IMG/VR virus record: IMGVR_UViG_2851976983_000005
Direction: 5' to 3' (one strand)
Origin: a virus
Lineage: Duplodnaviria > Heunggongvirae > Uroviricota > Caudoviricetes
Length of the DNA stretch: 42,303 nucleotides
Made by a program: the position numbers. Position 1 is the first letter of the stretch; each line of letters starts with the position of its first letter. Below, piece by piece: positions 15,549-18,500 of the stretch.

Positions 15549-18500
15549 TTACTCCTTCGCGGAGGCAGTATTCCGTCAGGAGCAGGCCTGCGTATCTTCT
15601 ATCGGAACCAGCGTTTGCAGGAAGATGATCAGTGGCGGAACCTGTATTAATTACGCGGGTTAACAATTCGTGCTCTTAATAATACCAGGCATATCAGGCT
15701 GATGAACGTAAAAAATCGTTTTACATCAGTAAGATTATTATATACTGTAAATATAAACAGTGGTTATGCATACAGCATTGCGTGTGGTGTCATAGGAGGA
15801 AAGATGCAGGACTATTTTTTGGAGTCTTTGAAGCTCCAGCGCATTGATTTTTTTCTTAAGCTTGTAGCGGCTAGTGAGTGTAGTGATGAAGAGAAGGGGC
15901 TGGCTCTGCAGTGGGTTTCTGAATTGACTGATGAACTCATGGCAAAAATCAGAACCCACGAATACAACCGCTCAATGGATGTCATCAGCTGAGGTGACTT
16001 TTATGCGCATTGAAATAATGATCGATAAAGAGCAGAAGATTAGCCAGTCTACCCTGGACGCCCTTGAATCCGAGCTTTACCGCAATCTGCGCCCCCTGTA
16101 TCCCAAAACGGTAATTCGCATTCGCAAAGGTAGCTCTAACGGTGTGGAACTGACCGGACTGCAACTGGACGAAGAAAGAAAACAAGTGATGAAAATTATG
16201 CAGAAGGTGTGGGAAGACGACAGCTGGCTGCATTAAGAAACGTTGCTGGCGTCTGAACTTGCTTCTGGCGTCAGCAAGGTTGAACAACGAGCCCTTGCGA
16301 GGCGTTAGCTCTGTAGTGCATGTCTATGCCGCATGAGATCGCATGATCGTTTGAGGATCGTTTTTGCTAAGGCCCGCCAGAACTGGCGGGCTTTTGCGTA
16401 GATCATGCAGGTGCATGAAAACCACTACATAAAGCGGGCAGGCGTGGCGGGGATACGAGCGCGCGCAACAGGTAAACCCCTAGACTTGTTAAAATATTTG
16501 TCATATAAATCAAACATCAAACCTAAGGGAGGCAGAGGATGATCCAGCCAAAAGTTTTTATATCCTATAGTTGGTCAAGTAAAACTCATCAGCAACATAT
16601 CAAAGATATAGCTGAACGATTGGCGGCAGATGGAGTTGAAACTGTCATAGATATTTATGACTTGAAAGAAGGGGATGATAAAAATTATTACATGGAAAGA
16701 ATGGTTCAAGATGAAACGGTTACGCATGTTTTAGTTATTTGTGATAAAAAATACTCAGAAAAAGCCGATTTAAGAAAAGATGGTGTCGGTGTTGAGTCGA
16801 TGATAATTTCCCAAGAAATATATTCATCCGTGTCGCAGTCCAAATTTATACCATTAATATTTGAGTACAAAGATAATGGAGAGCCGTATACTCCAATCTT
16901 TCTGAAGTCTAGAATCTATATTGATTTTTCAACACCAGAAAAAGAAAATGATAATTGGGAACGTTTAATCAGGTTGCTTTATGGAAAACCAGAATTTACT
17001 AAGCCACCATTAGGTAAGCCTCCGGTTTATTTAGAGCAAGACACGTCAAAACCGACGTATGAAATTCATGCAAAATTTCAAACTTTAAAATCAGCTGTCT
17101 TAAATCAAAAGCAGACATTAAAGGATTGCAGAAGGCAATTTTTAGAGGTGTGCCGAAATTATTGTATCTCACTACAAGTCGTAACAAACCCAACTACTGA
17201 AGATTTTGCAGCGGAAGTTTTGCAAATTCATAAAGAGCTTATTGCCGTTAGGGATGCCATTACAGACTGGGTTTTACTTGAGGGTGATACGCAGGGCGAA
17301 GACTTTTCCAAAGCACTATTACAGTTTATGGAAGTAATGTTAGCGATTAGAAATCGTCCGAAAAATGTAAATTCATATAATGAAATATGGTTTTTGCCCC
17401 ATAAGATTTTTGCGTATGAAACGTTTTTATATATTTTGGCGGCTTTAATAAAAATTGAAGCTTTCCAGCATGTACATACATTACTGCATACATCTTATTT
17501 GCTACCCGATCATATAACCAGTCCGGGAATGGAGTTTGCTAATTACAGTGAGTTATATTTAAGCTCTGATTACCTTCAAAGTAAATTGTCCCCTGAAAAC
17601 TATCGACTGTATTCCCCTGTTGCTGAGTTAGTAAAGCAAAGTGCAACTAGAGATGATGTGTCTTTCGATGATTTGAAACAAGCTGATCTTGTTGCTCTTA
17701 TGATATCCTTCATTAATCCCAGTATTTTTTGGTACCCGCAAATGTTGTTGTATTCCGGGCACTATGAGAAATATCCTCTATTTACAAGAGCAATACAGCA
17801 TAGAGGATTCAAGAGTATTGCAGTTATTACCGGAATCGATGACAGTAAACTTTTGGCTCAAAAGCTGACAGAGGGTGAGGCCCAGCGAAATACTAGCAAC
17901 TGGTATCATTTCGGTTTTAATAGAGACTTTCTCAATCAAATGAATGTTAGTCGCCTAGATAGTATTGAATGAAAATTAGAGGGCGCTTTGCAAAGCGCTC
18001 TCTGTATTAGTTTTCAATATCTAAGGTGTAGGGCTCAAAGCGGATCACTTCTTCGCCCAGCCAGTCGTTAAGCTCCTGCAGTCGCTTCTGCAGCGGCATC
18101 AGCTCGTTGCGGACAAAGACGCGGCTGGCCTTTTCCACATCACCAAAGCCGCCGGTATTGTTGGGAATGATGCCCATCATCTGCGGCGGCACGCGGTGAG
18201 CAGCCATCATGTCATCACGGCTCACGTTCTTGATGTTCAGAAATTCATCCTTTGCTGCAACTTCCGACAACGGGATTATCTGGATGCCGTCCTTTTTACC
18301 GTTGGGCGAATACATAAACAGGTTGCGGAAGTTGCCCGGCCCTTTGGCGCTTTTCATTGCCTGGCGGATATTGTTCACGTCCTCCTGATTCTGTGCTGCG
18401 TCGGTCATGTACATGATGAAACCCGCGTGGCTGCCGTTGATGTAATACTTCCGGCGAAACAGCGTTGCTGACTCGTTGAGCAGGGTTGACGGGATGGCGG

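What the first reader, a model, noticed from the sequence alone, without database searches (positions are those of the whole stretch)
15743..16236. LexA-box-controlled two-ORF module (small protein plus DinI-like) between repA and cos
Seen in sequence: a perfect CTGT-N8-ACAG SOS box lies upstream of a 62-aa ORF with a strong RBS. That ORF overlaps by 60 nt, in another frame, a 77-aa DinI-like ORF. Established knowledge: phage 186 is induced through a LexA-repressed antirepressor Tum at the equivalent map position, and Tum has a DinI-like C-terminal part, as I recall. Inference: either a Tum-like antirepressor split by a frameshift, or two separate SOS-induced genes. Either way the prophage is wired to the SOS response without repressor autocleavage.
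Basis: partly seen in the sequence, partly recalled or inferred. Interest (0 to 1): 0.5.

Follow-up and report, generated by a model that had tools for sequence, protein, structure and literature searches.

The report
Split Tum antirepressor SOS operon (tumA-tumB)
This is the ordinary, already described DNA-damage switch of Fels-2/PSP3-type P2-like prophages: a LexA-repressed promoter driving a small antirepressor gene (tumA) and a separate DinI-like gene (tumB), present in about a fifth of complete E. coli genomes.

Summary
The SOS box, the 62-aa ORF and the 77-aa DinI-like ORF are real. The claimed 60-nt overlap is not: the conserved DinI start (ATG 16003, with its own RBS) lies 10 nt after the stop of the 62-aa ORF.

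The pair is the Fels-2 locus. ORF62 is 98.4% identical to STM2728 and the DinI ORF is 100% identical to STM2726.1. It matches PSP3 tumA/tumB, the published "tum split in two" arrangement (PMC3121763).

Profile comparison links ORF62 to the N-terminal part of 186 Tum (hhalign 94.9%, E 4.7e-8; PHROG bridges to PSP3 TumA).

A frameshift is excluded. ORF62 is a conserved stand-alone family (dN/dS 0.07). Where a DinI gene follows, the gap is 9-12 nt and the relative frame is 0, 1 or 2 in different loci. About 60% of the 52 related loci have no DinI gene at all.

The LexA box is conserved upstream in 47 of 52 loci. The prophage repressor is 186-type CI with no S24 protease domain.

Extras:
- A second overlapping SOS box of colicin-operator type.
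- TumA sequence does not track CI type.
- An IS100-like insertion in repA probably cripples this prophage.

Verdict: already known, low interest.

The parts
15720..15725 (+). Putative -35 hexamer TTTACA of the SOS promoter (equivalent of 186 p95)
   Evidence: Read directly in the sequence. The hexamer is invariant or nearly so in the 12-locus upstream alignment. It lies 17 bp upstream of TACTGT, the hexamer annotated as the -10 of p95 in 186. The simple consensus scan did not call it, so the promoter is inferred.
15743..15748 (+). Putative -10 hexamer TACTGT (alternative: TATACT at 15741-15746), overlapped by LexA box 1
   Evidence: The same hexamer, with the same overlap with the LexA site, is annotated for p95 in the 186 record. 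The columns are conserved. Inferred, not measured.
15745..15760 (+). LexA (SOS) box 1, CTGTAAATATAAACAG
   Evidence: Found. A perfect or one-mismatch box lies upstream of the homologous gene in 47 of 52 loci from other genera.
15760..15775 (+). Second, weaker SOS box GTGGTTATGCATACAG, sharing one base with box 1 (colicin-type dual operator)
   Evidence: The box 1 + box 2 arrangement at a 15-nt offset is found in about 20 Fels-2-type loci. It aligns base for base with the operator upstream of colicin-like pore-former genes on Col plasmids. [quoted passage not shown] LexA binding here was not tested.
15795..15799 (+). Ribosome-binding site GGAGG of tumA
   Evidence: Read. AGGAGG is invariant in the alignment.
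15804..15992 (+). tumA-like gene (62 aa): predicted CI antirepressor, a helical hairpin
   Evidence: - 98.4% identical to Fels-2 STM2728.
- Matches phrog_698 at E 3.6e-38, with bridges phrog_8554 and phrog_1993 to 186 Tum and PSP3 TumA.
- hhalign of the family profile against 186 Tum gives probability 94.9%, E 4.7e-8, residues 3-45 on 3-45.
- Median dN/dS is 0.068.
- The AF2 model has two helices, 2-23 and 28-61, with pLDDT 85.8.
15991..15997 (+). Ribosome-binding site GAGGTGA of the DinI-like gene
   Evidence: Read. A purine-rich RBS-like motif lies in front of the conserved MR[IV]EIMIDKEQK start in all DinI-bearing loci.
16003..16236 (+). tumB / DinI-like gene (77 aa): predicted RecA-filament modulator
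   Evidence: - Pfam DinI, E 6.6e-23.
- 100% identical to Fels-2 STM2726.1 and 78% identical to PSP3 TumB.
- 41% identical to 186 Tum 71-145.
- Full-length match to E. coli DinI, PDB 1GHH, E 2.7e-6.
- It starts exactly where 186 has an internal RBS and GTG, annotated there as 'truncated Tum'.
16369..16399 (+). Intrinsic-terminator-like hairpin (GC-rich 11-bp stem, then TTTT) ending the SOS operon before cos
   Evidence: RNA fold of 16237-16410: -72.8 kcal/mol, z = -4.1. It occupies the same position as t95a after tum in 186. Termination was not measured.
16441..16459 (.). cos-like cohesive-end site, ggcgtggcggggatacgag
   Evidence: The first 13 bases are identical to the annotated 19-nt cos of 186. 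The same motif lies 155-450 nt after tumA or dinI in many loci.
7601..8239 (-). 186-type CI immunity repressor, the presumed target of TumA
   Evidence: Pfam Phage_CI_repr (8.2e-33) and Phage_CI_C (1.2e-40), with no Peptidase_S24. 32% identical to 186 CI over 193 residues. The TumA-CI interaction is inferred from 186 (PMC7708051; annotation).

Best explanation
This is the SOS induction operon of a Fels-2-type, P2/186-like prophage, in the 'split tum' form known from Fels-2 and PSP3.

Proposed mechanism:
1. In undamaged cells LexA sits on the operator that overlaps the -10 region of the promoter. The operator is one perfect box plus an overlapping weaker box, as in colicin operators. LexA keeps the operon silent.
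2. DNA damage activates RecA, LexA cleaves itself, and the promoter opens.
3. The first gene, tumA (62 aa, a two-helix hairpin), is the homologue of the N-terminal part of 186 Tum. TumA is inferred to bind the prophage's non-cleavable 186-type CI repressor stoichiometrically and reversibly, and to stop it binding its operators. That derepresses the lytic promoter.
4. The second gene, tumB (77 aa), is a separate DinI homologue. It corresponds to the C-terminal part of 186 Tum and to the internally initiated 'truncated Tum'. It is inferred to act on RecA filaments and tune the strength or duration of the SOS signal. It is not needed for antirepression.
5. Transcription stops at a hairpin terminator just before cos.

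Shown here: the sequence features, the homologies, the conservation, and the absence of a protease domain in CI.

Inferred: LexA binding, the TumA-CI interaction, and the DinI role.

In this particular copy an IS100-like element splits repA, so induction probably cannot give productive phage growth.
For: Identity of the locus:
- ORF62 is 98.4% identical to Fels-2 STM2728.
- The DinI ORF is 100% identical to Fels-2 STM2726.1 and 78% identical to PSP3 TumB.
- The PSP3 record annotates tumA ('similar to 5' end 186 tum; UV induction of prophage') and tumB.

Homology of ORF62 to Tum:
- hhalign gives 94.9%, E 4.7e-8, aligned in register.
- Shared PHROGs 698, 8554 and 1993 link ORF62 to 186 Tum 1-61 and to PSP3 TumA.

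A real gene and not a frameshift:
- Median dN/dS is 0.068, with variable sites 34/23/57 by codon position.
- 482 database clusters and 66 representatives at 50% identity are nearly all about 60-70 aa, and none is fused to DinI.
- The DinI start is conserved, with a 9-12 nt gap and relative frame 0, 1 or 2.
- About 60% of the related loci lack a DinI gene, and in many tumA is the last gene before cos.

LexA control:
- The box is conserved in 47 of 52 loci, even where TumA is only 34-47% identical.
- The geometry matches the annotated p95/LexA site of 186.

Target:
- CI is 186-type without an S24 domain.
- 186 induction works through Tum sequestering CI after LexA derepression of p95 (PMC7708051).
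Against: - No experiment was done here. LexA binding, transcription and the TumA-CI interaction are all inferred.
- ORF62 shows no pairwise BLASTP similarity to 186 Tum or PSP3 TumA. The profile match to PSP3 TumA alone is weak (probability 7%, E 0.005). The link rests on profile bridges.
- TumA sequence does not co-vary with CI. Identical TumA goes with CIs only 35-40% identical, and near-identical CIs go with TumAs 41% identical. That is unexpected for a specific protein-protein pair. It leaves room for a different or broader target.
- The published evidence for antirepressor activity of a stand-alone TumA is a personal communication for PSP3 (PMC3121763) and, from my memory of Bunny et al. 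2002, genetic evidence for Fels-2. That paper could not be read here.
Confidence: 0.85

Rival explanations
1. A 186-like single tum gene has been broken by a recent frameshift or sequencing indel. The two ORFs would then be halves of a pseudogene.
For: The two ORFs lie in different frames. An upstream in-frame ATG (15931) gives a 101-aa ORF that overlaps ORF62. In 186 the two parts are one 146-aa protein.
Against: - The same two-gene layout, with the same stop and the same DinI start, occurs in Fels-2, PSP3, more than 60 phage records and 1124 of 5426 complete E. coli genomes.
- Across genera the relative frame of the two genes is 0, 1 or 2, always with a 9-12 nt gap and an RBS.
- tumA is under strong purifying selection over its full 62 codons.
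- No fused form appears among 482 + 66 homologues.
- About 60% of related loci have tumA without any DinI gene.
Confidence: 0.01
2. ORF62 is SOS-induced but is not a specific antirepressor of this prophage's CI. It might act on a conserved host target such as RecA, LexA or cell division. It might also be a generic inducer acting on many 186-type repressors, with CI inactivation not being its only or main role.
For: - TumA and CI are evolutionarily uncoupled. 40 loci give 29 CI clusters but only 5 TumA clusters. The Mantel Spearman r is 0.10 for CI against 0.45 for the adjacent RepA.
- Phage records with 100% identical TumA have CIs 98, 58, 44, 41 and 36% identical to the window's CI.
- No direct assay exists for this protein.
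Against: - ORF62 is homologous to the Tum N-terminal region and falls in the PHROG neighbourhood of PSP3 TumA. For PSP3 TumA, antirepressor activity and UV induction are recorded (PMC3121763).
- In the 52 loci examined it lies next to repA and near cos, and a 186-type CI is found upstream in 41 of them.
- The conserved CI N-terminal domain (57-96% identity, with most of the positions that are at least 90% conserved lying in residues 13-77) offers a common surface. That would reconcile antirepression with the lack of covariation.
Confidence: 0.12
3. The CTGT-N8-ACAG match is a chance occurrence in AT-rich intergenic DNA, and the operon is expressed independently of LexA.
For: The bare pattern occurs twice in the window against 0.59 expected. 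13% of shuffles do as well. The generic promoter scan called no sigma-70 promoter here.
Against: - The box is retained upstream of tumA homologues in 47 of 52 loci. It persists through otherwise diverged flanks and at several different distances from the start codon.
- It overlaps the -10 exactly as in the annotated 186 p95/LexA site.
- The dual-box sequence matches colicin operators.
Confidence: 0.02

Closest known systems
Salmonella prophage Fels-2 STM2728 / STM2726.1 (split tum locus)
   Same: - The DNA is essentially the same. TumA is 98.4% identical and the DinI protein 100% identical.
- It has the same dual SOS boxes, RBSs and 10-nt intergenic gap.
- It sits in the same position after the gpA-like replication gene.
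   Different: - The window's copy sits in an E. coli-type prophage whose closest phage record is Escherichia phage 500465-1, and whose repA is interrupted by an IS100-like element.
- The cargo downstream differs. Fels-2 has a 243-aa gene right after dinI. The window goes straight to the terminator and cos, then a TIR/SEFIR gene.
Phage PSP3 tumA / tumB
   Same: - The two-gene architecture and position are the same.
- TumB is 78% identical.
- A LexA box lies upstream.
- The record annotates tumA as the 186 tum 5' homologue involved in UV induction.
- PSP3 CI is of the same family (34% identical).
   Different: - TumA proteins show no pairwise similarity and are linked only through profiles (phrog_1993).
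- In PSP3 the two genes are in the same frame, separated by a stop codon and 3 nt. Here they are in different frames with a 10-nt gap.
- PSP3 has a single SOS box.
Coliphage 186 Tum (p95 SOS operon)
   Same: - A LexA-repressed promoter with the box over the -10.
- The same map position between the replication gene and cos.
- An N-terminal antirepressor region homologous to ORF62 and a C-terminal DinI-like region homologous to the second ORF.
- A 186-type CI as target.
- 186 also makes the DinI part separately from an internal RBS and GTG at the equivalent codon.
   Different: - In 186 the two parts are fused in one 146-aa protein with nested starts.
- 186 has a single SOS box.
- 186 has orf97 downstream in the same operon, which is absent here.
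E. coli chromosomal DinI
   Same: The second ORF is a full-length homologue (PDB 1GHH, E 2.7e-6, residues 1-75 on 1-77; Pfam DinI). Both are LexA-regulated.
   Different: It scores below the NCBIfam equivalog cut-off (42.7 against 111 bits), so it is a phage paralogue and not DinI itself. Its effect on RecA is untested.
Gifsy-type LexA-controlled dinI-antirepressor operons (gfoA/gftA) and colicin dual SOS operators
   Same: - The logic matches Gifsy: LexA controls a small antirepressor plus a DinI homologue, and the repressor is not cleaved (PMC3121763).
- The operator sequence matches the overlapping double SOS box of colicin genes (PMC2994835).
   Different: - In Gifsy the gene order is reversed (dinI first), and the antirepressors and repressors belong to other families (PMC3121763).
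- The colicin operons encode unrelated products.

Membership tests
Tum / TumA antirepressor family (186 Tum N-terminal region, PSP3 TumA, Fels-2 STM2728) | Sequence homology to the N-terminal (non-DinI) part of 186 Tum or to PSP3 TumA | tested here: met
   - The family profile A1 against 186 Tum gives hhalign probability 94.9%, E 4.7e-8, residues 3-45 on 3-45.
- PHROGs 698, 8554 and 1993 are shared with 186 Tum, and PSP3 TumA matches phrog_1993.
- 98.4% identical to Fels-2 STM2728.
- Pairwise BLASTP to 186 Tum and PSP3 TumA finds nothing. The direct profile match to PSP3 TumA is weak.
Tum / TumA antirepressor family (186 Tum N-terminal region, PSP3 TumA, Fels-2 STM2728) | LexA operator overlapping the promoter of the gene | tested here: met
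   A perfect CTGT-N8-ACAG lies at 15745-15760 over the putative -10, with the same geometry as the annotated p95/LexA site of 186. It is conserved in 47 of 52 related loci. This was tested at sequence level only.
Tum / TumA antirepressor family (186 Tum N-terminal region, PSP3 TumA, Fels-2 STM2728) | Location in a P2/186-like prophage between the replication gene A and cos, together with a 186-type (non-cleavable) CI | tested here: met
   The repA remnant ends at 15650 and the cos-like site is at 16441-16459. CI at 7601-8239 has Phage_CI_repr and Phage_CI_C and no S24 domain. The same context is seen in the related loci.
Tum / TumA antirepressor family (186 Tum N-terminal region, PSP3 TumA, Fels-2 STM2728) | Binds CI and prevents operator binding; needed for SOS induction of the prophage | not testable with these tools
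   This needs reporter or binding assays. The lack of TumA-CI covariation neither proves nor disproves an interaction.
DinI family (Pfam PF06183) / TumB | Full-length match to the DinI domain above the curated threshold | tested here: met
   PF06183 gives 81.3 bits against a cut-off of 24.2, covering residues 14-76 on profile positions 1-63 of 63. The match to E. coli DinI 1GHH is full length. The ORF is 100% identical to the Fels-2 DinI-family protein and 78% identical to PSP3 TumB.
DinI family (Pfam PF06183) / TumB | Equivalence to chromosomal E. coli DinI (NCBIfam equivalog NF007893) | tested here: not met
   42.7 bits against a curated cut-off of 111. It is a phage-borne paralogue, not the housekeeping DinI.
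DinI family (Pfam PF06183) / TumB | Binds RecA filaments and modulates the SOS response | not testable with these tools
   Inferred from family membership and from the 186 record note 'truncated Tum - modulates SOS induction'.
Colicin-type dual overlapping SOS operator | Two 16-nt LexA boxes sharing one base, CTGT-N8-(A/C)CAG followed by GTGG-N8-ACAG | tested here: met
   Window 15745-15775 aligns without gaps to the operator upstream of colicin-like pore-former genes on two Col plasmids. The arrangement is conserved in about 20 tumA loci. Binding of two LexA dimers was not tested.

The most novel reading that the evidence does not exclude
TumA of Fels-2-type phages may be a generic antirepressor rather than an immunity-specific one. 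Nearly identical TumA proteins, under strong purifying selection and always behind an SOS box, are paired with at least five or more very different 186-type CI repressors (35-98% identity). Near-identical CIs are paired with TumAs only 41% identical. TumA would therefore recognise the conserved N-terminal DNA-binding domain of CI. One SOS-induced TumA could then cross-induce any co-resident 186-type prophage. A colicin-type double LexA operator would delay firing until damage is severe.
Probability: 0.4. Interest if true: 0.45.

Novelty: already known. Interest (0 to 1): 0.15.

Why it matters
There is little new biology here. The locus is the textbook alternative to lambda-style repressor cleavage. 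It is already described for 186 (fused Tum) and for Fels-2 and PSP3 (split tumA/tumB).

Its practical value is annotation:
- TumA has no Pfam or NCBIfam model.
- TumA is labelled 'hypothetical protein' in the listed records; the module is present in about 1,100 complete E. coli genomes.
- Database entries often use over-long start codons that run through the promoter.
- Recognising TumA tells whether a P2-like prophage is SOS-inducible.

Two comparative observations made here may deserve a small experimental follow-up:
- The operator is a colicin-type double SOS box, which predicts tight repression and late induction.
- TumA does not co-evolve with CI, which predicts cross-induction among co-resident 186-type prophages, as shown for Gifsy phages.

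Tried and rejected
- Pairwise BLASTP of ORF62 against 186 Tum and PSP3 TumA found nothing. Homology had to be shown with profiles.
- Pfam and NCBIfam have no model for ORF62.
- A Foldseek search of the AF2 model against the PDB gave only generic helical hairpins, none at E <= 0.001. There is no informative structural relative.
- The generic promoter scan found no sigma-70 promoter. The promoter is inferred from the 186 annotation and from conservation.
- The first search for related loci attempt, with the broad alignment, failed for lack of a conserved stretch. A narrower alignment worked.
- My first dual-box search pattern had the wrong spacing and found nothing. This was corrected by script.
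- Bunny et al. 2002 and Gillor et al. 2008 are not held in the library. A whole-word search for TumA/TumB returned only irrelevant papers.
- I tested whether TumA co-varies with CI, as expected for a specific antirepressor. It does not.
- I considered and rejected the frameshift reading, the 101-aa DinI form and the 96-aa ORF62 form that starts at 15702. The 96-aa form would begin upstream of the promoter and the LexA box.
- The second CTGT-N8-ACAG at 14924 lies inside the IS transposase gene, has a GC-rich spacer and is taken as chance.
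Full report
**What is in the sequence**

- The 16-mer CTGTAAATATAAACAG is at 15745-15760.
- A 62-codon ORF starts at ATG 15804, 43 nt downstream of the box. It is preceded by GGAGG (15795-15799) and ends with TGA at 15990-15992.
- A 77-codon ORF starts at ATG 16003, preceded by GAGGTGA, and ends at 16236.
- The two ORFs are in different frames and are separated by 10 nt.
- A putative promoter, TTTACA (15720-15725) - 17 bp - TACTGT (15743-15748), places the LexA site over the -10. 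This matches the annotation of p95 in the phage 186 record.
- The generic promoter scan did not call this promoter, so it is inferred.
- After the second ORF there is a strong hairpin followed by a T-run at 16369-16399.
- A cos-like site at 16441-16459 shares its first 13 bases with the 19-nt cos of 186.

**Context**

The window holds a P2/186-like prophage with these parts:
- An integrase at 6557-7597 (-).
- A CI repressor at 7601-8239 (-). It has the Pfam domains Phage_CI_repr and Phage_CI_C and no S24 protease domain. It is 32% identical to 186 CI.
- An Apl-sized ORF and a CII (PF06892).
- A replication gene A that starts at 11276.

Gene A is split by a 1955-bp IS21-family element at 13500-15454, with istA/istB on the minus strand. 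The element has a 5-bp target duplication relative to the intact gene in locus L006. The same IS100-type insertion is annotated in Escherichia phage 500465-1. That record is one of the closest phage matches (99.5% identity over 770 nt).

**Identity of the two genes**

The second ORF:
- It matches Pfam DinI (E 6.6e-23).
- It aligns over its full length with E. coli DinI, PDB 1GHH.
- It is 41% identical to residues 71-145 of 186 Tum.
- It is 78% identical to PSP3 TumB.
- It is 100% identical to the Fels-2 DinI-family protein STM2726.1.

The first ORF:
- It has no Pfam or NCBIfam match and no BLASTP similarity to 186 Tum or PSP3 TumA.
- It is 98.4% identical to Fels-2 STM2728.
- It belongs to phrog_698 (E 3.6e-38). 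It also matches phrog_8554 and phrog_1993.
- The N-terminal 61 residues of 186 Tum match all three of those PHROGs. PSP3 TumA matches phrog_1993 at E 2.7e-32.
- A profile of 27 diverse family members aligns to 186 Tum residues 3-45 in register, with hhalign probability 94.9% and E 4.7e-8.
- The shared pattern is ...LQRI.L..RLV....C...DKELA..W..EL...
- An AlphaFold2 model gives a two-helix hairpin with pLDDT 85.8. No informative structural neighbour was found.

**Not a frameshift**

- The exhaustive search found 66 representatives at 50% identity. The word-indexed search found 482 clusters.
- Almost all are 55-75 aa once over-long start calls are set aside, and none carries a DinI domain.
- In 30 distinct 62-codon alleles from different genera the variable sites are 34/23/57 by codon position. 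The median dN/dS is 0.068.
- 52 loci from other Enterobacterales were fetched. About 20 have a DinI gene after tumA.
- In those, the DinI start MR[IV]EIMIDKEQK is conserved and lies 9-12 nt after the tumA stop, behind an RBS. The relative frame is 0, 1 or 2 in different loci.
- The in-frame extension upstream of that start is 1-25 codons and usually has no ATG.
- The remaining loci have no DinI gene. In many, tumA is the last gene before cos, which lies 155-182 nt further on.
- In 186 itself an internal RBS and GTG at the equivalent codon gives the annotated 'truncated Tum'.
- The two parts therefore behave as separable units throughout the family. 186 is the fused variant.

**LexA control**

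- Within the window alone the pattern is not significant: 2 hits against 0.59 expected.
- Across the 52 loci a perfect CTGT-N8-ACAG lies within 150 nt upstream of tumA in 37, and a one-mismatch version in 10 more.
- The boxes sit at several distinct distances (18, 21-23, 42-51 and 78 nt). They are present in loci whose TumA is only 34-47% identical to the window's.
- In an alignment of 12 upstream regions the invariant blocks are TTTACA, TATACTGT...ACAGT, AGGAGG and ATG.
- That alignment also shows a second conserved half-site. GTGGTTATGCATACAG (15760-15775) shares one base with box 1.
- The combined 31-nt element aligns without gaps to the operator in front of colicin-like pore-former genes on small Col plasmids, CTGTATATAAAACCAGTGGTTATATATACAG.
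- 186 and PSP3 have a single box.

**Literature**

- PMC3121763 (Lemire et al. 2011, Discussion) states that Tum appears to be an antirepressor fused to a DinI sequence.
[quoted passage not shown] This is a personal communication by G.E. Christie, cited from Bunny et al. 2002.
- The PSP3 GenBank record names the genes tumA and tumB.
- PMC7708051 describes 186 induction as SOS derepression of p95 followed by sequestration of CI by Tum.
- From memory, Bunny et al. 2002 attributed the lethality of lexA null mutations in Salmonella to the Fels-2 tum homologue. I could not read that paper here.
- The module is present in 1124 of 5426 complete E. coli genomes. In the listed records it is annotated 'hypothetical protein | DinI-like family protein'.

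**Mechanism**

Shown: the features, homologies and conservation above.

Inferred:
1. LexA, probably two dimers, represses the promoter.
2. SOS induction releases it.
3. TumA binds the non-cleavable CI and blocks operator binding, which derepresses the early lytic operon.
4. TumB (DinI-like) modulates RecA filaments and thereby the SOS signal.
5. Transcription ends at the hairpin before cos.

In this copy the IS in repA lies about 50 bp from where the 186 origin would map (for the 186 ori). It probably prevents productive replication.

**An unexpected comparative result**

If TumA were an immunity-specific partner of CI, the two should co-vary. They do not.
- 40 loci with both genes give 29 CI clusters at 75% identity or more, but only 5 TumA clusters at 60% or more.
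- TumA pairs at least 95% identical go with CIs 35-37% identical.
- CI pairs 92-94% identical go with TumAs 41% identical.
- The Mantel Spearman r is 0.10 for CI, 0.02 for its N-terminal domain and 0.13 for its C-terminal domain. It is 0.45 for the adjacent RepA.
- Phage records with 100% identical TumA have CIs 98, 58, 44, 41 and 36% identical to the window's.
- Most CI positions that are at least 90% conserved lie in the N-terminal domain, residues 13-77.
- The simplest reconciliation is that TumA recognises this conserved domain and is promiscuous. That would allow cross-induction like that shown for Gifsy antirepressors (PMC3121763).
- The alternative is that TumA has another target. Neither reading can be settled here.

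**Verdict**

- The locus is an already known arrangement, nearly identical to the Fels-2 locus.
- Interest is low. The dual colicin-type operator and the TumA-CI uncoupling are modest leads.

Noticed in passing
window 15760-15775 (with 15745-15760): A second SOS box overlaps the first by one base. The 31-nt element is almost identical to the double LexA operator of colicin genes on Col plasmids. It is conserved in about 20 Fels-2-type tumA loci but absent from 186 and PSP3.
   Followed up: yes
window 7601-8239 (CI) versus 15804-15992 (tumA); loci L006-L057: TumA and CI are evolutionarily uncoupled. Identical TumA occurs with CIs only 35-40% identical, and near-identical CIs occur with TumAs 41% identical. 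TumA similarity tracks the neighbouring repA instead.
   Followed up: yes
window 13500-15454: A 1955-bp IS100-like (IS21 family, istA/istB) element with a 5-bp target duplication splits the replication gene A. It lies about 50 bp from where the 186 origin would map. The same insertion is present in Escherichia phage 500465-1. The prophage is probably replication-defective.
   Followed up: partly
window 16539-17972: A 477-aa protein with an N-terminal SEFIR/TIR_2 domain (phrog_11745) sits between cos and the portal gene. Homology to locus L006 stops at 16465 and resumes at 18025. This is therefore a variable cargo slot, probably holding an anti-phage defence gene.
   Followed up: partly
window 15981-15998: A small hairpin, GTCATC-AGCTGA-GGTGAC followed by TTTT, spans the tumA stop codon and the RBS of the DinI gene. 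It could couple or attenuate tumB expression. It was seen only in the window/Fels-2 subgroup.
   Followed up: no
window 1-5267: The left end lies outside the P2-like prophage. It holds a 572-aa HATPase_c/HEF_HK protein and a 588-aa Response_reg_2 protein as an overlapping pair, then a 138-aa hydrophobic ORF (-) and a P4-type integrase (3996-5267, -). This looks like a separate integrated island, possibly a defence system.
   Followed up: no
window 5521-6567 (-): A 348-aa ORF with no Pfam match, and with predicted N-terminal membrane segments, lies immediately downstream of the prophage integrase. That is the slot where 186 has orf69. It is likely a lysogenic-conversion or defence cargo gene.
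   Followed up: no
window 15702-15992 and 15931-16236; database entries P0005, P0007 and others: Many public annotations call over-long versions of both genes: 96 aa for tumA, starting upstream of the promoter and LexA box, and 101 aa for dinI. TumA has no Pfam or NCBIfam model. It is labelled 'hypothetical protein' in the listed records; the module is present in about 1,100 complete E. coli genomes.
   Followed up: partly
loci L012, L013, L016, L024, L034 (about 270-330 nt after tumA, or directly after it in L034): Some related prophages carry an extra small conserved ORF (63-88 aa, MGxKDxxYQIVYRG...FFQRPKECG) between dinI and cos. In L034 it takes the place of dinI. Its function is unknown.
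   Followed up: no
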